Made by a program: the position numbers and the translations under genes. Below the pieces are notes generated by a model. It searched no databases, was not told where the DNA came from, and saw only the letters and a list, made by a program, of their open reading frames with translations. Source: Chloroflexota bacterium (GTDB lineage Bacteria; Chloroflexota; Dehalococcoidia; JACPQD01). From it: 64,000 nt of DNA. The stretch lies in assembly GCA_016190665.1 (NCBI GenBank), contig JACPQD010000022.1, positions 20,296 through 84,295 on the forward strand, read 5' to 3'. The stretch's first letter is position 1; the number at the start of each line of letters is the position of its first letter. Positions 17,003 through 39,976 of the stretch are shown piece after piece.

Positions 17003-17021
17003 TCCTCCCGGGGTATGAACG

Positions 17022-17420: not shown

Positions 17421-17446
17421 TTCTGCTCCCTCTGTTGTCGCCCGGC

Positions 17447-19126: not shown

Positions 19127-19200
19127 ACCTCCCAGTTAACCCCAGTCAAGCACACCCATTCCGGAATCCACGGATTCAAGAATCTGGCTTCCGGTCCGAT

Positions 19201-20718: not shown

Positions 20719-20768
20719 TAAACGACCTCCAGCCGGATCTCCTTCTCAGGGCGCCACTCGGTCTGCCC

Positions 20769-22127: not shown

Positions 22128-22266
22128 CTTGCCCTCCCAGAAAGAATTCCGCAGCGAATCACGGCCAGGCACCTCACACTAGCACCTCGTGCCTCTCCAG
22201 CCTCCTCCGCATACAAAGTTATTGCCACTTACTGGCGAAGATATTCATCGGAAGTAGCCAGGTTCG

Positions 22267-23940
22267 TCAGCGCGCCAACCATACGTCCCTAAAACTGTAG
22301 CCTGAATAGTACGATCGCTGAGGCGCACCCCAACCCTTCACGTACTCGCGCCAGGCGAAAAGCTTCATCCATGTGCCCACCGTTATCACCGGAACATCCT
22401 CGGCAAGGATGGTTTGGATGACATCCTGGAGAGCTTTCTTGCGCTGCAAAGGGTCGAGGATACGACTCTGCTTGTCGATCAACTGCCCCGCCCGTGGGTT
22501 ATCGTACATGGCCCAGTTCTGTCCCCCACCCTTAACATAACCACTGTAAAGGACGGAATCAGGGTCATCGACTATGTAGGCGAGAGTGCCGAAGGCAAGC
22601 GCCCAGTCGCCTCCAACCCTGACGTTATGAAAGGCCGCAGCCTCCAAACGTTTGATTTCTACATCTATGCCAACTTCTTTCAACTGCGCCTTCAATACCA
22701 CGGACGCGTCCGCATGCGCCTGGATGGTTTGAGTCATGAGTGTCGTCTGGAATCCGTCTTTGAACCCCGCCTCGGCCAGCAATCTTCGGGCCTCGCGACG
22801 GTCCTCCTCCTTATCACGTCTAACATAGTAGCCTGGCAGTTGTTTGAGGTCCTCCTCCGACGGCAGCCACTTAGAACCATCGGGGAACAGTGCAGCCTGC
22901 GGCGCGAACCACTCCCCCAGCAACAGCTTCGAAAGGTTTTCCCGGTCTACGGCGAGCGCTACAGCCTTTCGTACCCTCACATCCTTGAAAGGCGTGCCTG
23001 CCAGATGTGGCCAATTGAAACTAATCGAACCCACGGAAGGACCTCCCACAACGGTCCCTATTCCGGGACGCTGCTGCTTCAGCGAAGGAAGCGCCTGCCG
23101 CGGGACTCCTGGAGTAAGGGGCAAAATGTCCACCTGTCCCACCGCGAAGGCGGCTCTCATTGTCCCCGCGTCCGGGATAGCATAAACACTGATGCCATCC
23201 AGATACGGCAGATCCTTGATGAAATAATCTGGATTGCGCACCAGATCCAACGACACACCGCTCTTCACTAGCTTATATTTGAACGGCCCAGTGCCCACGG
23301 GTTGTCCGCCAAGGCCATCGGGACGTTCGTAAGCAGCCTTGGAGATGACCGCCGCCTGCCCTCCAGCCAGAGAGGGAAGGAAGGAAGGTCTGGGATAATC
23401 GAAGAACACCTTGACCGTGTATTCATCGGGAGCTTCGGTCCGCCTCAATTGGGGCGATAGTAGGCCATATGCATACGCTGGAGCCCCTTTTTCAGGCAGC
23501 TTCGTGCTCACATCCAGAAAGAACTTCACGTATTGAGCGGTCATGAGAGCGCCATCGTGGAACTTCACGCCTTTCCTGACGCGCAGAGTCAGGAGTCTGC
23601 CATCGTCGCTTATCTGCCAGCCCTCCAACAGATGCGGCGCCAACTTCGCCGGGTCGCTCCGGTCCTCTTCAACCAGTTGGTCATACATGGGCAACATGGG
23701 GATACGCCCAGTTGCTGTCGCGTCAGTGAGAATGTCAAATCTTGCCGGCAGACGAGATGCGCCCCACTTGAGTATGCCGCCAAACTTCGGCTTCTCCGGG
23801 ACAGGCGTTGGGGTGATGCCTGCCGGGGCTGCGGTGGCCGCAGGCACGGAAGTAACCTTCCGCTCCGCGGGGGCACAGCCGACCAGTAGACCGATCACAG
23901 CAACCAGCCCAGTCAGGGCTCGCAGATTCCGCGTCTCCAT
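22267..23940 (-). CDS. Family-5 ABC substrate-binding lipoprotein embedded in the catabolic operon
   Basis: 557 aa. Lipobox LLVGCAP. SBP_bac_5 body ending DVWLAR. Confidence 0.9.
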   Translation of the reverse strand: METRNLRALTGLVAVIGLLVGCAPAERKVTSVPAATAAPAGITPTPVPEKPKFGGILKWGASRLPARFDILTDATATGRIPMLPMYDQLVEEDRSDPAKLAPHLLEGWQISDDGRLLTLRVRKGVKFHDGALMTAQYVKFFLDVSTKLPEKGAPAYAYGLLSPQLRRTEAPDEYTVKVFFDYPRPSFLPSLAGGQAAVISKAAYERPDGLGGQPVGTGPFKYKLVKSGVSLDLVRNPDYFIKDLPYLDGISVYAIPDAGTMRAAFAVGQVDILPLTPGVPRQALPSLKQQRPGIGTVVGGPSVGSISFNWPHLAGTPFKDVRVRKAVALAVDRENLSKLLLGEWFAPQAALFPDGSKWLPSEEDLKQLPGYYVRRDKEEDRREARRLLAEAGFKDGFQTTLMTQTIQAHADASVVLKAQLKEVGIDVEIKRLEAAAFHNVRVGGDWALAFGTLAYIVDDPDSVLYSGYVKGGGQNWAMYDNPRAGQLIDKQSRILDPLQRKKALQDVIQTILAEDVPVITVGTWMKLFAWREYVKGWGAPQRSYYSGYSFRDVWLAR

Positions 23941-26243: not shown

Positions 26244-26467
26244 GATGCCCGATGCCAGCAAGCTGGTTCACCATTACGAGACACTTTAGAAAGTGAAACC
26301 TATTCTACGGTTCCCTCTCATCAGTGAGGGTGGAAACCACAGATACATATCAAGAGTATCGTAAGATTATTCTAGAGGGGAAGGGAAAGGGACATGGAAG
26401 CCGGCCACCTGTCCAAGATCCGGCGGGGCGGCTGGTGCTCGTCATAGGAGGTAGGAGGAGGTTCGGA

Positions 26468-28162
26468 ATGTTCAAGCGCTTGTTGTCCAAGGTGACGATC
26501 TTGCTGCTTCTCGGTCTGGTCTTGTTAAGCTGTGTCCCGGGAACATCGCCAGCTGTGACGTCAAAAGCGGTACCATCGCCTGCGGAGGAAGCTTCGACAC
26601 CCCGACAACCCACGATAACGGTTGCGGGTCCAATACCGACGACGAAACAGGGCGACGAGCAGCCTAAGTATGGGGGAGTCATGACGACTGGACAACCCGC
26701 CGAGCCGGTTAGCTTTGACATCCACCAAGAGTCTGGCGGTCAACACCCACTCTATCTCACGCCAGCTTACAACGGGCTCCTTCAGTATGATCCACTTTCT
26801 TGGCCTGAAGAGAAGATCGTGCCTGACTTGGCAGCAACTTGGCAGACAAGCCCGGACGGCCTGGAATACACGTTCAGGCTCAAGAACGGCGTGAAATGGC
26901 ATGATGGCAAGGCGTTTACCAGCGAAGACGTCAAGTCCAGTCTCGATAGAATTCGCGAGCCGCCCAAGGGAGTACGAAGTCCAAGACAGGGCGCGCTGCA
27001 GCCTGTCGCCCAAGTGAACGCTCCCGCTGTCGATACGGTAACGGTCCGTTTGAACTACGCCAGTGCCTCGCTGGCTTCGAATGTAGCGACAGATTGGTTT
27101 GCGATACTGCCGAAACACGTGCTCGAAGCAAAGGGTGACATGAAGCGGGATATCATCGGGACCGGGCCTTTCAAGTTCAAAGGATACACGCCTGGGACGA
27201 CCCATGAGGATGTGAGAAATACCGGCTATTTCGTTAAGGATCGGCCTTACCTGGATGGCATTCGGCTCTACCTGGTGAAGGACGATGCCACGCGTTTCGC
27301 AGCCCTTCGTACGGCAAGAGTTGTATACCTGCCGTATCCATACGGCGTTAGTCCGGCCCAGGCCGGGGTTGCGAGGGCGGACACAAATCTGGTGGTCCAA
27401 TCGAATTTTCAGCCGACTCTCCATCACTTTCGCATGAACCTCGAGAAAGCGCCTTGGTCCGACCCAAGGGTCCGCAAAGCCGCAAGCCTTGGCATCGACC
27501 GTCAGGCGTTCATTAAGGCAGTGTTTGCAGGATCGGCCATTCTTGGTGTTCAAATGTCGTCGGCCGGACCTTGGGGAATACCAGAGGATGAACTGCTTAA
27601 GATGCCTGGCTACCGACAACCGAAAGAGGTGGACATCGCTGAAGCTAAGAAACTCCTGGCGCAAGCCGGTTTTGCGGACGGGTTCAAAACCAGCATTCTG
27701 ACCAGAAGCGAGGAACAACACCAAAGGCGAGGTACCTTTGTTGCGGCAGAGCTCGCAAAGCTGGGGATCAAAGCTGAACTTGTGGTGAAAGCCGCTGCCA
27801 CCTATGATGACACTCTCATGAGGGGAGCGTTCGACGCGCATACCCATGGGACAGCTACAGCGCTAGAAGATCCGGATCTGAGGTACGGTGAGAACTATGT
27901 AACCGGCGGGGGACGCAATTATGGGAAATACACTAACCTGAGGATAGACGAACTCTACGAGAAGCAGTCCCGTGCCTTGGACGTGGCTGAACGCAAGAAG
28001 ATAGTTCGAGAGATGCTCATGATACTTAATCAGGATAATCCTGATGTTCCTCTCGCCTGGTCACTGACGCAGATCGCTCACACAAAACAGGTGAGGAATT
28101 ATAAGATGGCTTCGTCCAACCAGATCAACAACAAGCATCAGGAAGTATGGCTGGCCGAATAG
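26468..28162 (+). CDS. Family-5 ABC substrate-binding lipoprotein
   Basis: Start moved to MFKRLLSKVTILLLLGLVLLSC (AGGAGGAGG RBS). Close paralogue of the next gene. Ends EVWLAE. Confidence 0.9.
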   Translation: MFKRLLSKVTILLLLGLVLLSCVPGTSPAVTSKAVPSPAEEASTPRQPTITVAGPIPTTKQGDEQPKYGGVMTTGQPAEPVSFDIHQESGGQHPLYLTPAYNGLLQYDPLSWPEEKIVPDLAATWQTSPDGLEYTFRLKNGVKWHDGKAFTSEDVKSSLDRIREPPKGVRSPRQGALQPVAQVNAPAVDTVTVRLNYASASLASNVATDWFAILPKHVLEAKGDMKRDIIGTGPFKFKGYTPGTTHEDVRNTGYFVKDRPYLDGIRLYLVKDDATRFAALRTARVVYLPYPYGVSPAQAGVARADTNLVVQSNFQPTLHHFRMNLEKAPWSDPRVRKAASLGIDRQAFIKAVFAGSAILGVQMSSAGPWGIPEDELLKMPGYRQPKEVDIAEAKKLLAQAGFADGFKTSILTRSEEQHQRRGTFVAAELAKLGIKAELVVKAAATYDDTLMRGAFDAHTHGTATALEDPDLRYGENYVTGGGRNYGKYTNLRIDELYEKQSRALDVAERKKIVREMLMILNQDNPDVPLAWSLTQIAHTKQVRNYKMASSNQINNKHQEVWLAE

Positions 28163-28336: not shown

Positions 28337-28365
28337 TTGACAGATCCTCAGCCCGGCTGTATATT
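28337..28365 (+). promoter_or_regulatory. Consensus sigma-70 promoter
   Basis: TTGACA (28337..28342), 17-nt spacer, TATATT (28360..28365). Implies a ~240-nt leader. Confidence 0.5.
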
Positions 28366-28612
28366 TCTGCCAGACATCCGCGACCCTTGCTTTCTGCTTC
28401 GATACGTTTTGAGAAGCTGGAATGCTTTCGGATTCGCGCGTGATGAATTAGCTTAGAAACCACAGATTCACGTAAGGAGCATCGTCAAATGGGGTAGCCT
28501 AGACAGAAACGGCGTTGTAGACGCGGAGGTGCCGGCGACATGGAAGGCGACCAGAAGTCCAGGATTCAGCGGGTCGGCTCGTTCTCTTCAGAGCAGTAAG
28601 AGGAGGTTCGGT

Positions 28613-30289
28613 ATGATAATCAGGCGTCTGTTGGCCGAGGCGAGTTCCTTGCTCGTTCTGGGGTTACTTCTTGCTGGCTGCGCCCCGGCGCTTACCCCGA
28701 CCCCCACGCTGAAGCCAGGCGTGGCTCCAACGAACGTGCCTGCCGGCGGCATAGCGCCGGCACTTACCCCAAAGGCGGCAGCACCGCAGCCCAAGTATGG
28801 TGGAGTACTAACCTTCGCGCTGCCGGCCGATCCGGTCACTTTTGACCTACACCAGGAGACGGGTGGACAACACCACCTCGCCCTCATGCCGGCCTACAAC
28901 GGTTTGCTTCAATACGACCCCCTGGCATGGCCGGAGGCGAAAATCGCGCCGGATTTGGTCAGTGGCTGGGAAGTCAGCCCCGACGGCTTAGGGTACACTT
29001 TCCGGCTGAGAAGTGGGGTGAAATGGCATGACGGGGTTCCCTTCACCAGCAGGGACGTCAAGGCAAGCCTGGACAGGGTTAGCAAGCCACCAAGAGGAAT
29101 GCGCAGCCCGAGGCAGGCTTCAGTGAGTTCTATCACCAACGTAGATGCCTCCACTGCTGACGTAGTGAAAATACGTTTGGATCAGCCCAGCGCCTCGCTT
29201 GCCTCAATCCTCGCGATAGACTGGCTTGCAGTCTTGCCTCAACATGTCATCGAAGCCAAGGGCGACATGAAACGGGATATCCTGGGTACGGGACCCTTCA
29301 AGTTGAAAGAGTATGCTGCCGGGACGAGCCTCGTCTACGTCAAGAACGGCGACTATTTCGCGCCAGGTCGCCCCTACCTGGACGGCATAATGATCTACGT
29401 GGTCAGGGATGAGTCGACTCGCTTCGCTGCTCTGCGCACCGGCAGAGTTCTTTATTTGCCCTTTCCCTATGGGGTAAGTCCCCCCCAAGCTGAGATTGCC
29501 AAAGGAGACCGGAACCTGGTTATTCAATCCAATTGGGAACCCAGCCTGGTCCACTTCCTCATGAACGTTCAAAGGGCCCCCTGGTCAGATCCCCGGGTTC
29601 GCCGGGCCGCGAGCCTGGCGTTTGACCGCCAGGCGTTCATCAAGACGGCGGCGCAAGGTAGCGCCCTCCTAGGAGCTCACATGCCATCCAAGGGACCCTG
29701 GGGAATACCTGAGGATGAGTTGCTCAAGATGCCCGGCTATCGCCAACCCAAGGACGCCGACATCGCTGAGGCTAAAAGACTCCTGGCGGAGGTGGGGTTC
29801 CCGGAGGGATTCAGCACCACTCTCCTCACCCGGCCAGAGTCCTCGCACCGCGCGCGGGGAACGTTCGCCCTGGCCGAACTGACGAAGCTGGGCATCAAAG
29901 CTGAGCATGTCATAAAGGAGACCGCTGCCTACGATGATGCTCTAAGCCGTGGCGCTTTTGACACACGAACTCACGGCGTAGCCACGGCGATCGATGACCC
30001 GGACCTCAGGTTCGGAGAGAACTACGTGACCGACGGGGGCAGGAACTACGGCAAATACAGCAACCCGAACTTTGACGATCTGTTCAGGAGACAGTCGCGC
30101 GCGCTGGATATCGTTGAGCGCAAGAGACTGGTGCGAGAAATGGAGATGATTCTTTTGCAAGATAACCCTGACGTACCACTGGCCTGGAACGTCGACAATA
30201 TTGCCCACAGTTCGCGGATGAGGAACTACAAAATGGCTTCCTCCGCTTACCTTAATAACAAGCATCAGGAAGTTTGGCTGGCGGATTGA
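28613..30289 (+). CDS. Family-5 ABC substrate-binding lipoprotein
   Basis: Start moved to MIIRRLLAEASSLLVLGLLLAGC (AGGAGG RBS). Tandem paralogue of 26468..28162. Confidence 0.9.
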   Translation: MIIRRLLAEASSLLVLGLLLAGCAPALTPTPTLKPGVAPTNVPAGGIAPALTPKAAAPQPKYGGVLTFALPADPVTFDLHQETGGQHHLALMPAYNGLLQYDPLAWPEAKIAPDLVSGWEVSPDGLGYTFRLRSGVKWHDGVPFTSRDVKASLDRVSKPPRGMRSPRQASVSSITNVDASTADVVKIRLDQPSASLASILAIDWLAVLPQHVIEAKGDMKRDILGTGPFKLKEYAAGTSLVYVKNGDYFAPGRPYLDGIMIYVVRDESTRFAALRTGRVLYLPFPYGVSPPQAEIAKGDRNLVIQSNWEPSLVHFLMNVQRAPWSDPRVRRAASLAFDRQAFIKTAAQGSALLGAHMPSKGPWGIPEDELLKMPGYRQPKDADIAEAKRLLAEVGFPEGFSTTLLTRPESSHRARGTFALAELTKLGIKAEHVIKETAAYDDALSRGAFDTRTHGVATAIDDPDLRFGENYVTDGGRNYGKYSNPNFDDLFRRQSRALDIVERKRLVREMEMILLQDNPDVPLAWNVDNIAHSSRMRNYKMASSAYLNNKHQEVWLAD

Positions 30290-30328
30290 GTTCGCAAGAG
30301 AGCCCAGAAATTCGCAAAGGAGGAGACA

Positions 30329-30910
30329 ATGAAGAAGGACATGGCAAAGCTCATTTCCCCTCGGGCGGAGGAGTATCGGGAGCGTCCGAGAGCTGCAAGG
30401 GGACGGGTGCTCACCGATCTCCACGGAAAGCTCATCGCCTTTGTGGACAATGGTCGACCCAATGCCGACATAGCTCTGGCCGGCGTTAGAGAGGAGATGG
30501 AAAGGGCCTTCCACATCCGGCCGGTCTCTGTTGAGTACAAGGCCTACGGGTTGTCGGCCGGCGGCCTTTTCCCTAAGGAAGTCTTCGACCGGCTGGTCAA
30601 CGAGGCGGACGCCGTGGTCTGGGGGATAGGTTCTTGAGGGGCATGCACGGGGCGGAGTGTCCGCAACGTCGCCGAGTTCGTTGGTCATGAAGTACCAGCC
30701 GTGGCGCTCGTGGCGCCGGCCTGGGAAGCTCCGGCCAGGGCCATTGCGCGGGCGGCTAAGTTGCCCGAGTCGCAAATCATTACTCTCCCGCTAGGCGAGC
30801 TATTCGCCGACAGCACTGACGCCGCCCAGCGGATGCGGGAGACGGCCGGTGATCTGGTGCCCTTGATCGAAAAAGCGCTGAAGGCAAGCTCTCCCGTTCC
30901 AGCGCGGTAG
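30329..30910 (+). CDS. Stand-alone UGSC-type selenoprotein domain (motif U-G-A-C); Sec codon TGA at 30635..30637
   Basis: ORF-track entries 30329..30637 and 30701..30910 share a frame and are separated only by one TGA. Context is VVWGIGS-U-GAC-TGRSVRNVAEF. AAGGAGG RBS. Homologous to residues 1-190 of the fused genes. Confidence 0.7.
30647..30669 (+). promoter_or_regulatory. SECIS-like hairpin candidate
   Basis: ACG-GG-GCGGA-GUG-UCCGC-AA-CGU begins 10 nt after UGA. G-containing apical loop. Confidence 0.4.
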
Positions 30911-30951
30911 CGGTCGCATGGTCCCAGCCCAATTCATGATAGGGAGGCAGC

Positions 30952-32010
30952 ATGACTGCACAAAGCGCGAAGGTCGTTGAAGTTCCGGATGATGTTGAGA
31001 CCATTTATGAGCACCTCGACGGCGAAGGTCTGCTCGATGGGCTTCCCGTGATTCCACCCACACAGGAAAGGGTGAAGCGATTCCTCGACGCGACCGGGCG
31101 TAACGCGGACGAGACCATTGGCTATATCGAACCCCTTGGGGGCCTGGTCACGGTGGAGAAGGTGGCAGCGAACGCCGTGATGGCCGGCTGCCGCCCCGAG
31201 CATATGCCCGTTCTGCTGGCGGCCGCCGAGGTCCTGTGCGACACGCGGGGCGGCCTGCCGGAGAGAGTTAACGAAACTCAAACGACAAGTCACAGCAAGC
31301 ACGCCCTCCTGGTAGTGAACGGGCCGATCCGGAAAAAGCTGGGCATAACCTCAGGAGAAAAGGGCAACGGCGTGAGCTGGCGGGCCAACGCTACCATTGG
31401 CAGGGCTATCCAACTCACCATGATGAACCTGGGTGGATTTCCCGGCGTGACGGAATGGAAGACCTGGGGGTTTTACGTTAATCGCGGCTATTGCATGGCG
31501 GAGAACGAGGAGCAATCCCCCTGGGAACCCCTGCACGTGGAATACGGGTATTCGGCCTCCGACAGCACCGTCACGGTGCTCCTCGTGGAACCCCCTCACC
31601 ACATGGAGCTTTCCTGGCCCAGCACCAACGAAGAGCTCCTGCACGCCTTCGGTCGCACCATGTCCGCCCCGGCCTTTCGGGACTCCTATGGGGACTGCTT
31701 GCCGATAGTGGTCTTTGGCCCCGACCAGGCCAAAGGGGTGGCCAAGTCGGGCTTCAGCAAAGCGGACGTAAAGCGCTACCTGTTTGAGCACGCCCGAACA
31801 CCTTACCGGGAGTTCGGCACCAATGCTGCGTCTGGCTGGAAGCCCTACTGGAGGAAGTTCTTCAGTCATGACCCCAATGCTATGGTGCCGATGGTAGCTC
31901 GGCCGGAAGATTTCACGGTCCTTGTGATCGGCGGGCCAGGGCCTCAGTCTCTGCACATCCCCCATAATCGGGCGCCCATCGAGTTCTGTATGCGGCGAAT
32001 CCAAGTCTAA
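30952..32010 (+). CDS. Stand-alone DGLPVIPPT-domain protein (homologue of the C-terminal two thirds of the fused selenoproteins)
   Basis: 352 aa. GLLDGLPVIPPTQERV and AANAVMAGCRPEHMPVL align with WADGLPVLPPTEERV / WTDGLPVIPPTRDKV and MAGCRPEYMPIL in the fused genes. GGGAGG RBS. Confidence 0.8.
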   Translation: MTAQSAKVVEVPDDVETIYEHLDGEGLLDGLPVIPPTQERVKRFLDATGRNADETIGYIEPLGGLVTVEKVAANAVMAGCRPEHMPVLLAAAEVLCDTRGGLPERVNETQTTSHSKHALLVVNGPIRKKLGITSGEKGNGVSWRANATIGRAIQLTMMNLGGFPGVTEWKTWGFYVNRGYCMAENEEQSPWEPLHVEYGYSASDSTVTVLLVEPPHHMELSWPSTNEELLHAFGRTMSAPAFRDSYGDCLPIVVFGPDQAKGVAKSGFSKADVKRYLFEHARTPYREFGTNAASGWKPYWRKFFSHDPNAMVPMVARPEDFTVLVIGGPGPQSLHIPHNRAPIEFCMRRIQV

Positions 32011-32291
32011 CTCCGTAGCGGCGAGAGCCATTCGCGGATTCGGCAATGTACTCGAAGTGGCAGTGTTCGGGGCCATAGGACGGCCTGGCCACACTATATG
32101 TTCTTAGTGCAGAATGAGGTTAGTCAGGGCCTGGAACGATCAGATTCACACAAGCAGGGGACGGCTTTTCAATCAGATGTTTGTCGCCGGGGTCTCATCA
32201 TAAGGCAACGATGAACGGCGGGTCCCTGCGATTGGGCCGGGCGGCCCATGCCTTGAAGGCAAGAACGAGACATGAGCGTAAGGAGGCTGCA

Positions 32292-33959
32292 ATGCTATCG
32301 ACGAAGTTGCGCGTCATTCTCAGTTGTCTGGCGACTTTGTGGCTTTTCCTCGCAAGCTGTGCTCCGGCGCCCGGCCTTCAACCGCCGGCGAAATCGGCTG
32401 CAGCGCCGGCGTCGGGGACCACTGAAGTCGCACCTGCGACGCCAGCCCCAACCCCCAAGCCAGCGGCTCAGCAGCCGAAATACGGGGGGATTCTGACGGC
32501 CATAGCGGCCTCCGACCCGCCGGACCTGGACATACACCGGCAATCGACCTATGCCACCTTCGCGCTGATCGCGCCGTCCTACAGCGGACTCCTGCAGTAC
32601 GATCCTCTGGAGAATGACCGCTTGATAGGCGATCTCGCGGACAAATGGGAAATGAGCCCGGACGGGAAGGTGTACACCTTCCGTCTTCGCCAGGGCGTAA
32701 AGACCCATGATGGCGCGCCCTTCACCTCGGAGGATGCGCAGTTCAGTCTCAACAGGTTAGGGGAGTTCGCGCCCATGGGCGCCTACGTCCCCTTTGTCGA
32801 TCGAGTCGAGGCGCCAGAAAAGGACACAGTAAGGGTGGTCCTGCAGCGACCTGTAGCCGGATGGGCGACTCTGGCCGGCCACGGCAGGGTTCTGATGGGG
32901 TCCAGGCACGTTATCGAGTCCAAGGGCAATCTGAAGTGGACGGCCGTGGGGACAGGGCCCTACAAGTTTGCTGAGTATGTGCCCGGCGTGAGCCTCAAGC
33001 TCGTGAAGAACAAAGACTATTTTGTTCCCGGGCGTCCCTATCTAGACGGGTTGACCTTCTACGTCATCAAGGACACCGGGACCCAGATGGCGGCCTTCCG
33101 GACGCACCAGGCGAGGTTCCTCGGGCCGCCCACCTACGGCCTCACTCCTTCCGCCGCTGATGTGCTGAAGAAGGACCTGGCTGGCAAGGCGGTTGTGGCT
33201 CCCTATTACCGCATGGCCTTCTCCGTGTTCCTCCCCAACCCGCTGAAGAAACCCTGGGACGACATACGCGTGAGGAGGGCCGCGTTTCTGGCTACGGACC
33301 GTGACAAAGGACTGGCGGTGGTGGCCGATGGGTTCGGTGAGCTGGCTGTGACCTGGGCCCCCAGGGAGTGGGCGCTGACCCAGGACGAGATAAGGAAGAT
33401 GCCTGGCTTCAGGAAGCCCAAGGACCAGGACATCGAGGCAGCCAGGAGGCTCATGGCCGAGGCCGGCTACCCCAGGGGCGTCAAGACGAGCATAATAGTC
33501 AGGGCCGGCTACTCGGACCACGAGAAGCTCGCCACCTTCTTCAGGGACCAGTTCGCCGCCATTGGCATCGACCTCGATCTCAGGATCGTGGACTATGCCA
33601 TATACGACCGCATGAGGAAGGACCGCACCCTGGACTCCATGACGTCCCTCAGCCACTTTGACGTGTCCGACCCGAACATGGCCTATCGGTATGTGACGTT
33701 CACCTATGGCCAGATGGCATCGCTCCTAGACGACCCGAAGATGATCGAGTTGCTGGATAAGCAGTCGGTGATGCTGGATAAGGGCGAGCGCAAGAAGATC
33801 ATCTCCGAGCTCCAGTATCGGGCCGCGGAGGCGGTCCCGCATATACCTATCGGCTGGCAGAACGCCTACCTGGGCCACTGGCCCGAAGTGATGAACTACA
33901 AATCGGGGTACGGCCCGGGCAACAACATGAAGTGGCAGGACGTCTGGTTGGCCGGTTGA
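32292..33959 (+). CDS. Family-5 ABC substrate-binding lipoprotein
   Basis: Start moved to MLSTKLRVILSCLATLWLFLASC (AAGGAGG RBS). Ends DVWLAG. Confidence 0.9.
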   Translation: MLSTKLRVILSCLATLWLFLASCAPAPGLQPPAKSAAAPASGTTEVAPATPAPTPKPAAQQPKYGGILTAIAASDPPDLDIHRQSTYATFALIAPSYSGLLQYDPLENDRLIGDLADKWEMSPDGKVYTFRLRQGVKTHDGAPFTSEDAQFSLNRLGEFAPMGAYVPFVDRVEAPEKDTVRVVLQRPVAGWATLAGHGRVLMGSRHVIESKGNLKWTAVGTGPYKFAEYVPGVSLKLVKNKDYFVPGRPYLDGLTFYVIKDTGTQMAAFRTHQARFLGPPTYGLTPSAADVLKKDLAGKAVVAPYYRMAFSVFLPNPLKKPWDDIRVRRAAFLATDRDKGLAVVADGFGELAVTWAPREWALTQDEIRKMPGFRKPKDQDIEAARRLMAEAGYPRGVKTSIIVRAGYSDHEKLATFFRDQFAAIGIDLDLRIVDYAIYDRMRKDRTLDSMTSLSHFDVSDPNMAYRYVTFTYGQMASLLDDPKMIELLDKQSVMLDKGERKKIISELQYRAAEAVPHIPIGWQNAYLGHWPEVMNYKSGYGPGNNMKWQDVWLAG

Positions 33960-34024
33960 TTGCTGATTTTTGATTTTTGATTGCGGATTGCCGGGAACGC
34001 CCGACTTGCGCTGGAGGTTATGAG

Positions 34025-36451
34025 ATGGTTTCCACGATCACGAACAAAGGACTACTCAATCGCATCGACGTCTTGCCGCTGAGTCCGCGGCTTCAGCGGC
34101 TCAAGGCGAGGTATTTCGAGGAGACCCCGAAGGTCTGTGCGGAGCGGCTCAAGTACTCCGTCCAGGCGTGGAAAGAGAGCGATGGGGATCCCATCGAGCT
34201 CCGAAGCGCAAAGGCGTTGCGGAAGATTCTGGAGGAGATGCCCATCGTCATCCATGACGGGGAGCTGACGGCAGGCAACCAGACCCGTTCCTTTCGCGGC
34301 TGCGCCCCTTATATCGATTTTGACAGCGAATACTTCGAGAAGGTGGCGGAGGGCTCCAAGGTGACTTTCGGCAGCCCGGCCGAATCGGGGAGCATCTCTG
34401 AGGAGGACTGGCAGATTTGCAGGGAGGCCGCAGCCTACTTCAGGGGGCGCAGTGCGGCGGAGGCGGCCAGGGAAGCGGCGAGGGCGGTATTCGGCGATTG
34501 GTACGAAGACGCGGCCGCGGTGCGCGTCATCTCTCCACGCTTCGATGAGCTGTCTTACCTGCCGGGAGTGCCTCTGTGGGAAAAGCTGCTGCAGGCCGGC
34601 CTGGCGGGCATTATCCGCGAGGCCGAGGCGGCCATGCAGTGCTTCCGGGACGGCGCTGAGCACGACCCGGAGAAGATTTCCTTCTGGCGGGCGATCATCA
34701 CCGTCTGCGAGGCGGTGGTGGCCTTTGCTCATCGTCACGCCGGGCTCGCCAGGCAGATGATCACCGAGGAGCCGGACGCAGCGAGACGCAAGGAGCTGGA
34801 GGAGCTGGCCGAGGCCTGCGACTGGGTGCCCGAGAACCCGGCGCGGAGCTTCCGCGAAGCCATTCAGTCCATCCGCCTGACTCACGTCGCTCTGCTCATG
34901 GAGAATAGCCGGAAGGCGGCCGACCTGGGCAGAATAGACCAGCTCTTCTATCCCTATTTCAAGAGGGATATGAATGAGGGCTCGCTGACAATCGAGAAAG
35001 CCGCCGACCTGTTAGGCGACTACATTTCCTATGTGGCGCGGCTGGAACAGATCCGGCCTTTGCGTGGCGCGGAGGGCCATCAGGCCACCATGATAAACCA
35101 TATCACTCTCGGGGGCCTAACTCAGGACGGGCAGGACGCCTGCAACGAGCTGACCTATCTCAGTCTCCACGTCCTGGGGTTGCTCGGATACGCGGAGCCG
35201 CACGCCACTCTGCGTCTGCATGAGGGCACACCGGCGTGGCTCCTGGAGAAGGCGCTGGAGACCAACCAGAAAGTGAACGGCATCCCCATGTACCTCAACG
35301 ACAAACACATCATTGAGACCATCTGCAAGAAGGGGGTGCCTCTGGATGAAGCCCGTGAGTGGGCGGTCTCCGGCTGCTCCCAGGCCGTCCTGCCGCGTCG
35401 CGGGCATTTCAATCCGATACAGATAAACATGGCTCTTGCCCTGGACCTCACGCTTCATAACGGCGTCTCCCCCCTCACCGGGAAGCAGGTGGGCATAGCC
35501 ACGGGAGACCCGCGAAGCTTCGAGACCTTCAGTGACCTGTTCGATGCGTACAAGAGACAGGCCGAGTTCATCATAAAGAGGCTGTTGAGGCTGGTGCGTC
35601 TGATGCACCTCGCGGAAGCGCAGGTCTTCAGGATGCCCCTGCGCTCTGCTCTCGATTACGCCACAATCCAGAATGGCAGGAGCCACCTTGTTGGAGGCTC
35701 CGATTCCTACCCCTTGTGGCACATAAAGGACCGGGGCCTGGTAGATGTGGGGGACTCCTTGACCGCTATCAAGAAGCTCGTCTTCGGCGAGAAGAGGCTG
35801 ACTATGCCGGAGCTTCTTCAGGCGCTGGACTCCGACTTCGCCGGCGAAAGAGGTGAGGAGATCAGGCAGATGTGTCTGGCCGCTCCGAAATACGGGAACG
35901 ATAACGATGACGCGGACTACATGCTGAGGGACGTGGCCAAGTTCAGCGCCGGCGTCATCCTTTCCGAGAAGAACTGCTTCGGCTGGCCGCACAGCCTGAA
36001 CCGAAACGGGGTCTCGTGGCATTTCGCCGCCGGAAAGGGTGTGGGCGCGCTGCCCAACGGCCGCCGCGCGCGGGCGCCCTTCGCCGATGGCTCCATGTCG
36101 CCTATGAACGGCATGGACAGGAGTGGGCCAACAGCCGTCCTGAACTCAGCGTTGAAGGCGGATTTCACGGAGGCGCTGGTTGGCATCCTGAACCAGAAGT
36201 TCCCTATTACCCTGGTGCGTAACCCTGAGGCGATGCAGAAAGTCGGCGATCTGACCCGAACGTTTATTCAGAACGGGGGACTGCACATTCAGTTCAACTT
36301 CGTCGACCGGAAGGTCCTGCTCGATGCCAAGAAGCATCCGGAGCGCTACAAAGACCTGGTGGTGCGCGTGGCCGGGTACAGCGCTTACTTTGTGAACTTG
36401 ACGCCCGAGGTGCAGGACGAGATCATCAGTCGCACCGAGCAGTGTATATAG
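34025..36451 (+). CDS. Glycyl-radical enzyme (PFL-like fold) with atypical Cys loop
   Basis: Start moved to MVSTITNKG (GGAGG RBS). C-terminal glycyl-radical motif VVRVAGYSAYFVNL. Cys-loop reads AVSGCSQAVLP. Confidence 0.85.
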   Translation: MVSTITNKGLLNRIDVLPLSPRLQRLKARYFEETPKVCAERLKYSVQAWKESDGDPIELRSAKALRKILEEMPIVIHDGELTAGNQTRSFRGCAPYIDFDSEYFEKVAEGSKVTFGSPAESGSISEEDWQICREAAAYFRGRSAAEAAREAARAVFGDWYEDAAAVRVISPRFDELSYLPGVPLWEKLLQAGLAGIIREAEAAMQCFRDGAEHDPEKISFWRAIITVCEAVVAFAHRHAGLARQMITEEPDAARRKELEELAEACDWVPENPARSFREAIQSIRLTHVALLMENSRKAADLGRIDQLFYPYFKRDMNEGSLTIEKAADLLGDYISYVARLEQIRPLRGAEGHQATMINHITLGGLTQDGQDACNELTYLSLHVLGLLGYAEPHATLRLHEGTPAWLLEKALETNQKVNGIPMYLNDKHIIETICKKGVPLDEAREWAVSGCSQAVLPRRGHFNPIQINMALALDLTLHNGVSPLTGKQVGIATGDPRSFETFSDLFDAYKRQAEFIIKRLLRLVRLMHLAEAQVFRMPLRSALDYATIQNGRSHLVGGSDSYPLWHIKDRGLVDVGDSLTAIKKLVFGEKRLTMPELLQALDSDFAGERGEEIRQMCLAAPKYGNDNDDADYMLRDVAKFSAGVILSEKNCFGWPHSLNRNGVSWHFAAGKGVGALPNGRRARAPFADGSMSPMNGMDRSGPTAVLNSALKADFTEALVGILNQKFPITLVRNPEAMQKVGDLTRTFIQNGGLHIQFNFVDRKVLLDAKKHPERYKDLVVRVAGYSAYFVNLTPEVQDEIISRTEQCI

Positions 36452-36469: not shown

Positions 36470-38185
36470 ATGTCGGAGCCGCGGTACGAGGTGGTGTGGC
36501 CACTCGGAAAGTCAGCTTATGATCCGATTCCCATGGCACGCCGCCAACCAGACTTGGCTGGGAAAACGATCTGTGAATTATGGGACTGGGCTTTCAAGGG
36601 GGATGAGGTTTTCGTCATCATCAGGGAACTGCTCTCGAAACGCTATCCTGGCATCAAGTTCGTTGATTGCAGGGAGTTCGGCAGTATCCACGGCGCCAAG
36701 GAAAGGGAGATGGTCGCGACCCTGGCCGGCCCGCTGCGCGAACATCATTGCGATGCTGTTGTCTCTGCCTTGGGCGCCTGAGGCGCTTGCACGCCTGCGG
36801 TTGTGCGGGCGAGCGCTGCCGCAGAAAAGGCCGGCATCCGCAGCGTGTCCATCGTCGCGTCTGGATTCATGCGACAAGCAAGGGCTATCGCTCAGGCGCT
36901 CGGAGCCAGCAACCTCGCTGTCGCTGAATACCCTGGCGTGATAATGGTCGACAGCGAGGAGGAGTTGCGAAGGAAAGTTGAGGAAGTCCTGATAACCAGA
37001 GTTGTTCAGGGATTGACGACGCCGGTACAGGATTCGGTCAAGACTATCGAACCGGAAGTCAGGGACATCGTCTTCAAGGGAACGCTAGAACAGGTTCAGG
37101 AGTCCTTTCACAGGAATCTGTGGACCGACGGACTCCCTGTGATACCTCCGACCAGAGACAAGGTGGAGGAATTCCTGGGATTCACTGACCGTTGTCCAGA
37201 AGAGGTTATCGGGGTGTTGGGGCCAGAGAACCGCGAGGCGACCATCTGGAACATCGCGGTAAACGGGGTAATGGCTGGCTGCCGCCCTGAATACATGCCA
37301 ATACTGGTCGCAATAGTGGAAGCGATCGCCGAGCCCGACTTCCGCATCGAAGACGCCGGCAGCACGCCGGGGTGGGAACCGCTGGTTATCCTTAACGGGC
37401 CGATCATGAAGGAACTGGACTTCAACTGTGGTTCCGGGGCGATGCGAGTCGGCCGGCTGGCCAACACGAGCATTGGCCGGTTCTTGAAGTTGTACATACG
37501 TAACGTGGCCGGAGTGCGGATAGCGCCCGGCGCAATAGACAAGGGTAGCATTGCCCAGAGCTTCAATGTGGTGTTAGCGGAGAACGAAGATGCAGTGGCT
37601 GAGCTCGGCTGGCAGCCCTTCAGTGTTGACCGTGGCTTTGAACTTGGCGAGAACGTCGTCACCGTCCAGAGCGTGATAAACATAAGCCCACCCTGCTACA
37701 GTGGCGGAAACGCCCCTGTTGAGCACATGAAAACGATTGCTGAAGTGATCGGGCAGCAGTCGATGGCCTACTGGACAGCCACCTGTGCACATCACGGGAG
37801 GTCCTATCCGCTCTTCGTATTGAGTCCGAGCGTGGCACGTGTGATCGCCGGTGGCGGCTGGACGAAGGGCCAGATGCGACAATACCTATATGATAATGTG
37901 AAGATCCGAGCAGGGTGGATGGAGGGTGTGGCTCGGCGAACCGGCATGACGAGTTTCAGCTTTTGTGCCTGCGTTGAGGCGGGCTTGGTGCCCGAGGCCT
38001 ACTGTCTGTCCGCGGACCCGAACAGGATGGTTCCGGTATTCCAGAGGCCCGACTGGATAGGTATCGTTGTCAGCGGCGATCCGGGTAGGAACCAGAGTAG
38101 AGGATATATGCAAAACCAGAAGCAGGGGACTCCTACAAGCAAGAAGATAGTTTTGCCAGCCATCTGGAGGCAACTTCTGAAGTGA
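36470..38185 (+). CDS. UGSC-type selenoprotein (U-G-A-C) fused to a DGLPVIPPT domain; Sec codon TGA at 36779..36781
   Basis: ORF-track entries 36470..36781 and 36803..38185 share a frame and are interrupted only by one TGA. Context is VVSALGA-U-GAC-TPAVVRASAAAEKAGIRSV. Starts 19 nt after the GRE stop. Confidence 0.75.
36783..36816 (+). promoter_or_regulatory. SECIS-like stem-loop
   Basis: GCGCU-ugca-CGCCUGC-GGUUGU-GCGGGCG-AGCGC starts 2 nt after UGA. 12 bp in total with a GGUU-containing apical loop. Confidence 0.5.
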
Positions 38186-38290: not shown

Positions 38291-39976
38291 GTGAAATCCA
38301 AGATATCAAGGACTGTTCTGAGTTGCATAAGCGCTTTCTGGCTTCTCCTGACAAGCTGCGCATCTCCTGCGGCCCCCACCCTGCCGTCGCCAACTCCAAA
38401 GGAGGCAGCAACCGCGCCTAAGCCAACCATCGCCGCCACCACCCCGACCGTTACCCCAAAGCCGGCAGCCGATCAGCCCAGGTATGGTGGTATCCTGAAT
38501 ATTGGCCATTATGCCGACCCAGCTACGTACGATCCAATCCAGGAGAGTTCGCTTCAGTCAGAGTCGTTGATCGTTCCCTCCTACAGCGGCATCGTGCAGC
38601 ATGATCCGCTGGAGCCCACGAAGGTCGTCGGCGACCTCGCACATAAGTGGGAGACAAGCTCGGACGGCAAAGTCTACACCTTCCATCTTTACAACAATGT
38701 GAAGTGGCACGATGGGACTCCCTTCACCTCCGAGGATGCCCGCTTCTCTCTCGAGGTGGTGCGCAAGCCGCCGACAGGAGTTCGCAGTCCGCGTCAAGAG
38801 TGGCTCAAGGCTGTCGAAAGGACCGAGGCTCCAGACAAGGACACTCTCAAGATGACACTGCAGTATCCCAGCGCGTCCTTCCTCGACAATTTAGGTGACG
38901 GTCGGATGGTGATCGTTCCCAAGCACGTGTACGAGAGCAAGGGCAATATGAGGAGGGATGTGGTCGGGACAGGCCCCTACAAATTCAAGTCTTTCTCTCC
39001 AGGGGCAAGCTGGAGCGCTGCGAAGAACAGTGACTACTTCATCAAAGGCCGGCCTTATCTCGATGGCATAATCTGGTACATCATACCGGACTTGGCCACG
39101 CGTTTTGCCGCGCTACGCACACACCGAATCCAGGTGACTCCTTTCGGTACCCAGGGATTGACGCCCTCCCAGTCCGAGATAATCCGTAAGGAACTGAGCG
39201 ACAAGATCATTGTCCAGCGATGCTCTTCTCCAGGCTTCCTGTCCTTCAGAATGCCAAATACGAAGGCTCCATGGAGCGACCTTCGGGTTCGTCGTGCCGT
39301 GGAGTTGACTATCGACCGGCCCAAGGTGATCAAGGTAGCGATGGAAGGCGTAGCCGACGTTGGCGGCTTCATGCCTCCAGGCGAGTGGAGCCTCCCTGAC
39401 GCTGAGCTCTTGAAGATGCCTGGCTTCCGTCAGACTAAGGATGCCGACATCGCCGAAGCGAAGAGGTTCATGGCAGAGGCTGGGCACGCTCGAGGAATAA
39501 AGACCACTACCGTCACCAGAAACGTCGCCATCTAGGAGAGGGCTGCTCTGATCGTAAAGGAGCAACTGGCCCAAATCGGGATAGAGATAACGGTTAGCCT
39601 CAAGGACCAAGCCACAATGTACGACCTTACATTCAGTCGAAACTTTGAGAGCGCCGTTTTTGGTCACACCGCCGGCTACAGCGACCCCGATCAAGTACTT
39701 GGCGAGTCCTTCATTACTGGAGTCCCTTACAATTTTGAGGAGTTCAGCGACGAGAAGTTTGACAAATGGTATGAGGAGCAGGCCCGCACCACGGACCCGG
39801 CGAAGCGCAAGCAGATGGTACTGGATATGCAGCGCAGACTCCACGAACTGGTGCCTTCCTCCATACTGTTCTGGTATGCCTACGAGTTCGCCAACTGGAA
39901 GGAAGTGAGCGACCTCAAGCCCGGCATTGGGCCTTACAACAACCTCAAGTTCCAGAATGTGTGGCTGGCGAATTAG
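38291..39976 (+). pseudogene. Family-5 SBP lipoprotein interrupted by a single in-frame TAG (39533..39535)
   Basis: ORFs 38291..39535 and 39617..39976 are in the same frame. Sequence after the TAG continues the family alignment (ERAALIVKEQLAQIGIEI...NVWLAN). The TAG aligns with a Tyr in the paralogue at 5..1711. Confidence 0.7.

What the first reader, a model, noticed from the sequence alone, without database searches (positions are those of the whole stretch)
30329..32010. Split version of the selenoprotein: a natural fusion/fission (Rosetta-stone) pair
At this locus the N-terminal UxxC domain (30329..30910, TGA at 30635..30637, context GIGS-U-GAC) ends with its own stop. The DGLPVIPPT domain starts 41 nt later with its own RBS (30952..32010). 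The break falls at the linker of the fused proteins: KVVEVPDDVETIYEHLDGEGLLDGLPVIPPTQERV aligns with KRITVEGKDYQDAVDKMNHLFLKNMWADGLPVLPPTEERV (locus 1) and RDIVFKGTLEQVQESFHRNLWTDGLPVIPPTRDKV (locus 3). Fused and split forms in one genome argue that the two domains act as one functional unit. The conserved Cys in MAGCRPE(Y/H)MP(V/I)L may be catalytic.
Basis: seen in the sequence. Interest (0 to 1): 0.75.

Follow-up and report, generated by a model that had tools for sequence, protein, structure and literature searches.

The report
Split UGSC selenoprotein with partner gene
Two neighbouring genes here encode a selenocysteine-containing "UGSC" protein and an unnamed 352-residue partner, a pairing kept in many bacterial phyla and sometimes fused into one protein, which gives a 20-year-old orphan selenoprotein family a concrete partner to test but no proven function.

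Summary
30329..30910 is one reading frame with an in-frame TGA (30635..30637). It matches Pfam UGSC (PF24696) on both sides of the TGA, and a selenocysteine-insertion hairpin follows. After a 41-nt spacer with its own ribosome-binding site, 30952..32010 encodes a 352-aa protein. That protein is homologous (30-33% identity) to the C-terminal parts of two fused paralogues in the window (36470..38185 +, 1950..3713 -).

The split is not an artefact, and it is the commonest arrangement of this module. In 80 species-representative genomes, 71 of 84 assessable partner genes had a UGSC gene within 300 nt or fused to them (38 upstream, 22 downstream, 11 fused). TGA occupied the motif in 83 of 85 UGSC copies. 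Fusions occur in both orders, and the two proteins co-diverge (Mantel r 0.87).

The partner family is large (about 8,000 clusters at 50% identity). It has no Pfam or NCBIfam model and no convincing structural relative. UGSC is predicted to have a flavodoxin-like fold, not a thioredoxin fold.

Function is inferred only. The most likely reading is a two-part selenoenzyme with a composite Sec/Cys80 site. A UGSC fusion to an unnamed domain was reported in 2008, so this is a new member of a known kind.

The parts
28337..28365 (+). Promoter-like site (TTGACA-17-TATATT) upstream of the solute-binding-protein gene. It is the likely start of an SBP-UGSC-partner operon.
   Evidence: 11 of 12 consensus matches. 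No terminator-like site lies between the SBP gene's stop at 30289 and 32010; the one site found (29429..29448) lies inside the SBP gene. This is a consensus match only.
28529..30289 (+). Family-5 extracellular solute-binding protein (586 aa). It ends 39 nt before the UGSC gene.
   Evidence: ORF; the best NCBIfam match is GsiB/DppA-type, all below cut-off. Paralogous genes match Pfam SBP_bac_5.
30317..30323 (+). Ribosome-binding site (AAGGAGG) of the UGSC gene.
   Evidence: Read from the sequence.
30329..30910 (+). UGSC-family selenoprotein gene (193 codons plus stop), stand-alone form.
   Evidence: PF24696, E 2.6e-21, residues 8-180; NF041046, 51.8 bits, below the 125-bit cut-off.
30635..30637 (+). 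In-frame TGA read as selenocysteine (motif U-G-A-C).
   Evidence: TGA occupies the same alignment column in 83 of 85 UGSC copies, with Cys in one and Gly in one. Full-length Cys forms align across it.
30652..30664 (+). SECIS-like hairpin GCGGA-GUG-UCCGC, whose stem begins 14 nt after the end of the UGA codon.
   Evidence: The homologous 8-bp stem is paired in 85.1% of cells across 79 sequences, against 21-51% when slid. It shows compensatory changes (GC 49, CG 24 at one pair). 0 of 500 shuffles reached the observed values on four of the five measures, and 1 of 500 on the fifth.
30942..30947 (+). Ribosome-binding site (GGGAGG) of the partner gene, within the 41-nt spacer.
   Evidence: Read from the sequence.
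30952..32010 (+). Partner protein (352 aa) with motifs DGLPVIPPT, MAGCRPE (Cys80), NGP, IGRA and C-x-AENEE-x-SPWEP. It has no Pfam or NCBIfam family.
   Evidence: The AF2 model has pLDDT 85.9.
36470..38185 (+). Fused paralogue (locus 3, 571 aa): UGSC (TGA at 36779..36781, LGA-U-GAC) followed by the partner domain. It starts 18 nt after a glycyl-radical enzyme gene.
1950..3713 (-). Fused paralogue (locus 1, 587 aa): UGSC (TGA at 3390..3392, NAG-U-GSC) followed by the partner domain. The partner domain lacks both conserved cysteines (MAGG; IVFAEDE).

Best explanation
The two ORFs are the two subunits of one selenoenzyme module, here probably co-transcribed with an upstream solute-binding-protein gene.

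The first subunit is a UGSC protein of about 190 residues. It is predicted to have a flavodoxin-like alpha/beta fold. Its selenocysteine sits at the N-cap of a helix, and the second cysteine of the U-x-x-C motif lies one helical turn later.

The second subunit is a 352-residue protein of a large unnamed family. Its near-invariant Cys80 also sits at a helix N-terminus.

The proposed mechanism is as follows. The two proteins form a complex; in the fused paralogues only 3-6 residues separate the two HMM matches. In that complex Sec and Cys80 build one active site. The selenol attacks a small imported substrate, or a Cys80-bound intermediate. A selenenyl-sulfide then forms and is resolved by the U-x-x-C cysteine and by cellular thiol reductants.

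Shown: the anatomy, selenocysteine decoding, homology to the fused forms, conserved pairing, co-divergence, and the predicted folds. Inferred: physical complex formation, the Sec-Cys80 composite site, redox chemistry, and the class of substrate.
For: - Reading frame, stop codons and ribosome-binding sites.
- UGSC homology on both sides of the TGA.
- TGA in 83 of 85 copies, and a covarying hairpin at a fixed distance.
- The split arrangement is repeated twice in the closest relative.
- The pair is adjacent or fused in 71 of 84 assessable cases across many phyla, in both gene orders.
- A Cys-form UGSC in Nakamurella is also followed by a partner gene (E 2e-85).
- Among the 149 top cluster representatives, 53 are UGSC-partner fusions and 4 are partner-UGSC fusions.
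- The fused linkers are short, 3-29 residues between the HMM envelopes.
- Mantel r is 0.87, against a maximum of 0.18 in 2000 permutations. Paralogous pairs within a genome are deeply divergent in both proteins.
- Sec (83 of 85) and Cys80 (96 of 97) are the two best-conserved nucleophiles.
- The Sec-equivalent Cys107 lies between strand 3 and helix 3 of the UGSC model, and Cys80 lies between two helices of the partner model.
- A thioredoxin-reductase-like gene (CATC / CALC motif) sits directly upstream of UGSC in two loci.
- Transport-receptor genes are the commonest neighbours (TctC in 14 of 137 nearest ORFs; SBP_bac_5 here).
Against: - No model of the complex or of a fused protein could be made, so the Sec-Cys80 proximity is untested.
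- Locus 1 of this window has Gly in place of Cys80 and lacks Cys181.
- Four UGSC copies lack the second cysteine of the motif (UGSS, UGTS).
- No reductase gene is conserved next to the pair. The thioredoxin-reductase-like gene was found in none of the 80 species loci, and the nearest neighbours fall into 117 different Pfam families.
- The partner domain has no convincing structural or sequence relative that would indicate its chemistry.
- The Mantel correlation is partly explained by shared phylogeny.
Confidence: 0.6

Rival explanations
1. The pair is a two-subunit enzyme but does not perform redox chemistry. Sec and Cys80 would act as nucleophile and general acid/base in an isomerase, racemase or hydro-lyase working on imported carboxylates. 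Examples would be Michael addition to an unsaturated di- or tricarboxylate, as in maleate isomerase, or acid/base catalysis as in two-cysteine racemases.
For: - No dedicated reductase is conserved nearby.
- Neighbours recurrently belong to organic-acid metabolism: TctC and DctP receptors, MmgE/PrpD, CoA-transferase III, aconitase, Ldh_2.
- The best, though weak, Foldseek hits of the partner model are class I fumarate hydratases (E 6.5e-4).
Against: - The U-x-x-C spacing with a conserved second cysteine (80 of 85) is typical of a resolving cysteine in redox proteins.
- The fumarate hydratase hits have a TM-score of about 0.2 and an rmsd of 16-18 A.
- No Pfam relationship was found at any threshold.
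Confidence: 0.2
2. The four conserved chalcogen ligands bind a metal ion or an iron-sulfur cluster at the subunit interface. The ligands would be Sec and Cys of U-x-x-C plus Cys80 and Cys181 of the partner. Selenium would then serve as a metal ligand.
For: - Four conserved Cys/Sec positions are split across the two proteins.
- The weak fold similarity is to cluster-dependent class I fumarate hydratases.
- Two UGSC members gave a weak match to the Pfam CGGC domain (best E 0.0064); my recollection, not checked here, is that CGGC is annotated as metal-binding.
Against: - Cys181 is missing in 11 of 97 partner copies, and the second motif cysteine in 5 of 85.
- Locus 1 keeps only the U-x-x-C pair.
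- The fold similarity is not convincing.
- No cluster-assembly or metal-transport genes recur nearby.
Confidence: 0.08
3. The split is an artefact or a decaying gene. A sequencing or assembly frameshift, or a recent nonsense mutation, broke a fused gene. Alternatively the TGA is a true stop, and only a 102-aa fragment is made.
For: Gene callers in public databases do stop at this TGA. The window's own 102-aa fragment is on record (P0138), as are many 96-108-aa fragments.
Against: - Each ORF has its own ribosome-binding site, and the spacer carries stops in the partner frame.
- The closest relative has the same split, with a 352-aa partner, twice.
- 60 of 84 assessable cases in other species are split and adjacent.
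- Homology to Cys-containing full-length proteins continues past the TGA.
- A covarying hairpin follows the TGA.
Confidence: 0.02

Closest known systems
UGSC-containing selenoprotein family (Zhang and Gladyshev 2007/2008; Pfam PF24696; NCBIfam NF041046)
   Same: - The N-terminal ORF matches the Pfam model above its threshold.
- It carries U-G-x-C at the family's motif position.
- It has the family's downstream hairpin.
- It has the typical stand-alone size.
- The 2008 paper lists a UGSC/Unknown_1 fusion, which is probably the fused form seen at loci 1 and 3 (PMC2398784).
   Different: - The window's three copies are divergent. They score 37-59 bits against NF041046's 125-bit cut-off, read UGAC/UGSC followed by R-N or R-A instead of the usual UGSCTSWSxHD, and are 15-27% identical to mainstream members.
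- The literature treats UGSC as a stand-alone protein with a probable thioredoxin-like fold and unknown function. Here it is nearly always paired with one specific partner, and the predicted fold is flavodoxin-like.
- I could not confirm that Unknown_1 is the same domain, because the figure is held only as an image.
Glycine / sarcosine / betaine / D-proline reductases (selenoproteins GrdA, GrdB, PrdB with partner subunits GrdE, PrdA)
   Same: - PrdB is listed with a U-x-x-C Sec motif (PMC2398784).
- From established knowledge of these enzymes: they are multi-subunit, they act on small amino-acid-type substrates, and a selenol attacks a substrate bound to a partner subunit, forming a Se-S bond that thiols then reduce. 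That is the working analogy for the mechanism proposed here.
- Peptide-type binding proteins, amidohydrolase and gamma-glutamyltranspeptidase genes are neighbours in some loci.
   Different: - No sequence relationship was found. Neither protein matches the Pfam models of those families even at E up to 5.
- Nothing here indicates a pyruvoyl group.
- The lineages carrying the pair (lake and groundwater Betaproteobacteria, Actinobacteria, Methylomirabilota) are ones I regard as mostly aerobic from general knowledge, whereas the reductases belong to fermenting anaerobes.
- The neighbourhood is not conserved.
Thioredoxin-fold U-x-x-C / C-x-x-U selenoproteins (Trx-like, Prx-like, DsbA-like, SelW-like)
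   Same: The redox-type dithiol/selenol motif sits at the N-terminus of a helix. A thioredoxin-reductase-like gene is adjacent in two loci.
   Different: The predicted topology is five parallel strands alternating with helices, which is flavodoxin/Rossmann-like. Foldseek returns generic three-layer alpha/beta folds and no thioredoxin-fold protein among the 50 listed.
Class I (iron-sulfur) fumarate hydratase
   Same: It gives the best Foldseek hits for the partner model (E 6.5e-4 to 3e-2). Neighbouring genes often deal with di- and tricarboxylates.
   Different: TM-score is about 0.2, rmsd 16-18 A and identity about 10%. From general knowledge these enzymes bind their cluster through three cysteines, and that triad has no counterpart: only Cys80 and Cys181 are conserved. 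No sequence match was found.

Membership tests
UGSC family (Pfam PF24696) | Match to the family HMM above the gathering threshold, covering most of the model | tested here: met
   77 bits against a cut-off of 25, E 2.6e-21, profile positions 2-166 of 172, spanning the TGA. Loci 3 and 1 score 103.5 and 65.9 bits.
UGSC family (NCBIfam NF041046, equivalog) | Score above the curated cut-off of 125 bits | tested here: not met
   51.8 bits for the split copy, and 58.9 and 36.8 bits for the fused copies. All three belong to a divergent subfamily.
UGSC family | Sec (or Cys) in a U-G-x-C motif at the conserved position | tested here: met
   The window copies read UGAC, UGAC and UGSC. Family counts are UGSC 68, UGGC 6, UGAC 5, UGSS 3.
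UGSC family / bacterial selenoproteins in general | SECIS-type hairpin shortly downstream of the UGA, with G in the apical loop | tested here: met
   The hairpin lies at 30652..30664 with loop GUG. Across 79 sequences the stem is 85.1% paired with compensatory changes. No Rfam family matched.
Bacterial selenoproteins in general | The genome encodes selA, selB, selD and tRNA-Sec | not testable with these tools
   No tRNA was found in the window. The source contig could not be retrieved.
UGSC-partner family (unnamed; possibly 'Unknown_1' of PMC2398784) | Conserved motifs DGLPxxPPT, (N)AVMAGCxPE, NGP, IGRA and C-x-AENEE-x-(S)PWEP, with a length of about 345-375 aa | tested here: met
   All motifs are present in 30952..32010. 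Closest homologues score E 7e-186.
UGSC-partner family | Encoded next to, or fused with, a UGSC gene | tested here: met
   41-nt spacer here. 71 of 84 assessable cases elsewhere.
Thioredoxin-fold oxidoreductases | Thioredoxin fold (mixed sheet, beta-alpha-beta-alpha-beta-beta-alpha) | tested here: not met
   The AF2 model of a Cys-form UGSC has pLDDT 90.7 and five strands that each alternate with a helix. Foldseek hits are flavodoxin-like, TIR, GTPase and PTS-IIB folds with TM-score up to 0.5.
Glycine/D-proline reductase components (GRDB PF07355, Gly_reductase PF09338) | Sequence match to the family models | tested here: not met
   No match even at E up to 5 for 25 partner members and 32 UGSC members.
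Glycine/D-proline reductase components | Self-processing proprotein that yields a pyruvoyl group | not testable with these tools
   This needs protein chemistry. In the model Cys80 sits at a helix N-terminus, which gives no support for a cleavage site.
Class I fumarate hydratase | Global fold match and three cluster-binding cysteines | tested here: not met
   TM-score about 0.2, rmsd 16-18 A; only two conserved cysteines.

The most novel reading that the evidence does not exclude
UGSC proteins never act alone. Together with this unnamed partner family (about 8,000 clusters at 50% identity, with no Pfam model and no structural relative) they would form a previously unrecognised class of two-component selenoenzyme. 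Its composite Sec/Cys80 active site would act on small imported organic acids or peptide-derived compounds. It is widespread in lake and groundwater Betaproteobacteria, Chloroflexota, Methylomirabilota and Binatia, and expanded to several paralogous pairs per genome.
Probability: 0.35. Interest if true: 0.7.

Novelty: new member of a known kind. Interest (0 to 1): 0.45.

Why it matters
UGSC has been among the most abundant predicted selenoprotein families in aquatic metagenomes since 2007-2008. It is still listed as uncharacterised in a 2026 review.

The evidence here shows three things:

- UGSC comes with one specific partner protein, as a neighbour in either order or as a fusion in either order.
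- The partner family is large and unmodelled in Pfam and NCBIfam.
- The predicted fold is flavodoxin-like, not thioredoxin-like.

These points turn "orphan selenoprotein" into a defined two-protein system that can be co-expressed, modelled and assayed.

There is also an annotation problem. Gene callers cut these genes at the UGA, so databases hold thousands of 100-aa stubs and N-terminally truncated fusions.

Tried and rejected
1. A structural model of a fused protein or of the pair was not possible.
   - MAFFT placed the UGSC-only rows onto the partner domain in both combined alignments (A3, A4).
   - I therefore modelled the partner and a Cys-form UGSC separately.
2. A single-sequence database search with the window's UGSC (U replaced by C) found nothing. 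A profile of 32 UGSC domains taken from the fetched loci was needed.
3. Searches for relatives of either protein gave nothing convincing:
   - PDB sequence searches for the partner and for UGSC;
   - Foldseek of both models;
   - low-stringency Pfam scans of all alignment members.
4. Homology between UGSC and the partner domain was suggested by MAFFT aligning GDC with AGC. hhalign rejected it (probability 0.1%).
5. No conserved third gene exists. The 137 nearest neighbours fall into 117 Pfam families. The thioredoxin-reductase-like neighbour seen in two loci is absent from all 80 species loci.
6. I tested for correlated loss of the second motif cysteine and Cys181. There is no co-loss, but the numbers are too small to mean anything.
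7. The identity of "Unknown_1" in the 2008 paper could not be confirmed. The figure is an image, and the stored supplementary sequences lack the motifs.
8. The window's own contig could not be retrieved to look for selA, selB or selD.
9. In-frame TGAs between UGSC and partner in L044, L046 and L051 look like ordinary stops followed by a new start, not second Sec codons.
Full report
**Observation.** The region is as described. 30329..30910 (+) is one reading frame with a single internal TGA at 30635..30637 (GIGS-U-GAC) and a TAG stop at 30908..30910. AAGGAGG precedes its ATG. After 41 nt, which include GGGAGG at 30942..30947 and an in-frame TAG at 30940..30942, ATG 30952 opens a 352-codon ORF that ends at 32010. 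The two ORFs are in different frames.

tblastn of the 352-aa product against the window finds two further copies:
- 37085..38086 + (30% identity, E 5.6e-39);
- 3032..2091 - (33% identity, E 5.4e-32).

Reading those frames through one TGA each gives fused proteins. One is 571 aa (36470..38185 +, TGA at 36779). The other is 587 aa (1950..3713 -, TGA at 3390..3392). One detail is wrong: locus 1 reads MAGGRPEY, so the cysteine is not conserved in all three copies.

**What the two ORFs are.** The first ORF, and the N-terminal parts of both fusions, match Pfam PF24696 (UGSC family). The E-values are 2.6e-21, 1.8e-29 and 6.6e-18, and the alignments run across the TGA. They fall below the cut-off of the NCBIfam equivalog NF041046 (37-59 bits against 125), so they form a divergent subfamily.

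The 352-aa protein has no Pfam or NCBIfam match, not even at E up to 5 for 25 family members. Yet it belongs to a very large family. A word-indexed search gave more than 7,400 hits at E below 1e-5, nearly all "hypothetical protein" of 340-375 aa. An exhaustive search of cluster representatives at 50% identity gave 7,999 at E up to 1e-3 and 2,428 at E up to 1e-30. The closest relatives (74-77% identity) come from a Chloroflexi MAG, so the window probably derives from a Chloroflexota genome.

**Selenocysteine decoding.** I built HMMs for both domains and scanned the loci with TGA kept open. The UGSC motif column held TGA in 83 of 85 copies, Cys in one and Gly in one. Full-length Cys forms exist in Actinobacteria (Modestobacter, Nakamurella) and align across the position.

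Downstream of the TGA, 79 distinct sequences share a hairpin at a fixed distance:
- The consensus is GUCGUGGA-GUG-UCCACGAC.
- 85.1% of cells are paired, against 21-51% when the 3' arm is slid.
- Seven of eight pairs show changes on both sides. One pair splits GC 49 / CG 24.
- 0 of 500 shuffles reached the observed values on four of the five measures, and 1 of 500 on the fifth.

In the finding's gene the hairpin is GCGGA-GUG-UCCGC at 30652..30664. No Rfam family matched. The Sec machinery could not be looked for, because the window has no tRNA gene and the contig was not retrievable.

**The split is real and is the usual state.** In the closest relative the order SBP - UGSC - partner occurs twice on one contig. 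The UGSC genes there are cut into two calls at the TGA, and the partner genes encode 350 and 352 aa.

I surveyed 80 loci from species-representative genomes. They cover Dehalococcoidia, Methylomirabilota/Rokubacteria, Binatia, Burkholderiales and other Betaproteobacteria, Nitrospinota, Acidimicrobiia, Poribacteria and others. They contained 89 partner genes, which divide as follows (one overlapping case reassigned by hand from the coordinates):

| Arrangement | Count |
|---|---|
| UGSC directly upstream | 38 |
| UGSC directly downstream | 22 |
| Fused | 11 |
| Nearest UGSC more than 300 nt away | 9 |
| No UGSC within 4 kb | 4 |
| At a contig edge (not assessable) | 5 |

A Cys-form UGSC in Nakamurella overlaps the start of a partner gene by 4 nt (hmmsearch E 2e-85).

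Among the 149 best cluster representatives, the architectures are:
- 84 partner alone;
- 53 UGSC-partner fusions, of which 37 were called only from after the TGA and 16 are full-length (those checked carry Cys at the motif);
- 4 partner-UGSC fusions, whose gene call ends at "...GD" just before the TGA;
- 8 tandem partner-partner proteins.

A neighbour-joining tree of the partner domains needs at least 11 changes of architecture. The downstream-UGSC order forms essentially one clade. Fusions appear in at least seven places. The window's two fusions branch deeply, whereas its split copy is sister to the Chloroflexi split copies. So this genome holds old paralogues of different architecture, not a recent fission.

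Pairwise distances of the partner and of its own UGSC correlate strongly over 75 pairs. Mantel r is 0.87, against a maximum of 0.18 in 2000 permutations. Paralogous pairs within one genome are deeply divergent in both proteins, so whole pairs were duplicated.

**Structure.** The partner model is confident (pLDDT 85.9, pTM 0.88). Cys80 lies between helix 68-78 and helix 82-95. Foldseek against the PDB gives nothing convincing. The best hits are class I fumarate hydratases at E 6.5e-4, but with TM-score about 0.2 and rmsd 16-18 A.

The UGSC model had to be built on a Cys-form homologue, because the tools refuse the Sec-containing sequence. It is also confident (pLDDT 90.7). It has five strands that each alternate with a helix, which is a flavodoxin/Rossmann-type layout. 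The Sec-equivalent Cys107 sits in the two-residue loop between strand 3 and helix 3. The second cysteine lies in the first helical turn. Foldseek returns only generic three-layer alpha/beta folds. The "likely thioredoxin-like fold" suggested in 2008 is therefore not supported. The two domains are not homologous to each other (hhalign probability 0.1%).

**Context.** In the window a promoter-like site (28337..28365, 11 of 12 matches) precedes the binding-protein gene 28529..30289. That gene ends 39 nt before the UGSC gene. No terminator-like site lies between that stop and 32010; the single one found (29429..29448) lies inside the binding-protein gene. An SBP-UGSC-partner operon is therefore likely.

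The window holds seven SBP_bac_5 genes and a glycyl-radical enzyme gene that ends 18 nt before fused locus 3. It also holds an amidohydrolase gene near locus 1 and a block of CoA-ester and organic-acid genes.

Elsewhere the nearest neighbours are very diverse: 117 Pfam families among 137 ORFs. The commonest are TctC receptors (14), NHL/SGL (6 and 5), luciferase-like monooxygenases (4), amidohydrolases (3) and DSBA (3). MmgE/PrpD, CoA-transferases, aconitase, TRAP transporters and gamma-glutamyltranspeptidase also occur. A thioredoxin-reductase-like gene with a CATC or CALC motif lies directly upstream of UGSC in two loci, but in none of the 80 species loci.

**Mechanism.** The following points are shown:
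- two genes, Sec decoding, and homology to the fusions;
- near-obligate pairing in either order, fusion in either order, and co-divergence;
- Sec and Cys80 as the two best-conserved nucleophiles, each at a helix N-terminus.

The rest is inferred. The proteins would form a complex with a composite Sec/Cys80 site. The selenol would attack an imported small substrate or a Cys80-bound intermediate. A selenenyl-sulfide would then be resolved by the U-x-x-C cysteine and general thiol reductants. The working analogy is the Sec-dependent glycine and D-proline reductases, but no membership in those families is supported.

The rivals are non-redox nucleophile or acid-base catalysis on carboxylates (0.2), an interface metal or cluster site (0.08), and artefact or true stop (0.02). 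Points against the preferred view:
- locus 1 lacks Cys80;
- a few UGSC copies lack the second cysteine;
- no reductase is conserved nearby.

**Comparison with the literature.** UGSC-containing proteins were described from 2007-2008 as abundant aquatic selenoproteins of unknown function. A "UGSC/Unknown_1" fusion was listed in 2008 (PMC1976440, PMC2398784). Reviews from 2022 and 2026 still give no function, and a full-text search found no characterisation. I could not verify that Unknown_1 is this partner domain.

**Verdict.** The finding is correct and its interpretation is supported, but the locus is a new member of a known kind. The added value comes from three points I did not find stated in the papers searched: near-universal pairing with one large, unmodelled partner family; fusion in both orders; and the flavodoxin-like fold. 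Interest is moderate (0.45).

Noticed in passing
window 1950..3713 (-): The partner domain of fused locus 1 has Gly where 96 of 97 family members have Cys80 (MAGG instead of MAGC). It also lacks Cys181, yet it keeps Sec in a UGSC motif. It may be a variant with different chemistry or an inactive paralogue.
   Followed up: partly
window 33977..36451 (+): An 824-aa glycyl-radical enzyme (PFL-like plus Gly_radical domains) ends 18 nt before fused locus 3. It scores below every NCBIfam equivalog cut-off; the best matches are sulfopropanediol dehydratase and 4-hydroxyproline dehydratase types. No activating-enzyme gene was seen among the annotated neighbours. Its substrate is unknown.
   Followed up: partly
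window 5..1711 (-), 22267..23940 (-), 26324..28162, 28529..30289, 32181..33959, 38291..39535, 41184..42845 (+): There are seven paralogous family-5 solute-binding-protein genes in 64 kb. The three whose N-termini I read (26324.., 28529.., 32181..) have lipoprotein-like signals, and the best NCBIfam match of the two scanned is GsiB, below cut-off. No permease or ATPase turned up among the neighbouring ORFs I scanned, but about half of the window was not annotated. Three of the binding-protein genes directly flank UGSC/partner genes.
   Followed up: partly
window 38291..39535 (+): This SBP_bac_5 ORF has only 414 aa and matches profile positions 1-284 of 368. A 600-nt gap follows before the next ORF. 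It may be a truncated or frameshifted copy.
   Followed up: no
window 14126..23940 (-): A block of organic-acid and CoA-ester genes sits here: thiolase-like, CoA-transferase family III, methylmalonyl-CoA-mutase-like, an FAD-binding_2 flavoprotein, MmgE/PrpD and another SBP_bac_5. The same families (CoA-transferase III, MmgE/PrpD) recur next to UGSC/partner pairs in other genomes.
   Followed up: partly
window 11346..13347 (-): An AAA_21/AAA_15 ATPase (465 aa) is followed by an overlapping 206-aa ORF. The layout resembles ATPase-plus-effector defence gene pairs.
   Followed up: no
L086 6440..7399 and L087 3605..4546: A thioredoxin-reductase-like flavoprotein gene (about 315 aa, CATC or CALC motif) lies directly upstream of UGSC in two unrelated loci. 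It is absent from all 80 species-representative loci.
   Followed up: yes
proteins P0152, P0201 (alignment A5): Two UGSC-family hits have long N-terminal extensions that resemble twin-arginine or lipoprotein signals (…RRDFTRVGAGV…; …SRRKFVKGAAAAGVGAGVLAACGS…). P0152 is a full-length Cys form; P0201's gene call ends at the motif position. Some family members may therefore be exported.
   Followed up: no
proteins P0218, P0233, P0244, P0282, P0331, P0339 (about 710-740 aa): These proteins consist of two tandem partner domains without UGSC.
   Followed up: no
window 36779..36826 and L011 190..237: The hairpin after the TGA of fused locus 3 (CGCCUGC-GGUUGU-GCGGGCG) is shifted by one register and has a 6-nt GGUUGU loop, unlike the family consensus. 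The same variant occurs in one Dehalococcoidia locus whose partner domain is its nearest relative on the tree.
   Followed up: partly
L044, L046, L051: UGSC and partner are in the same frame, separated only by TGA codons. These look like ordinary stops followed by a new start codon, but read-through was not excluded.
   Followed up: partly
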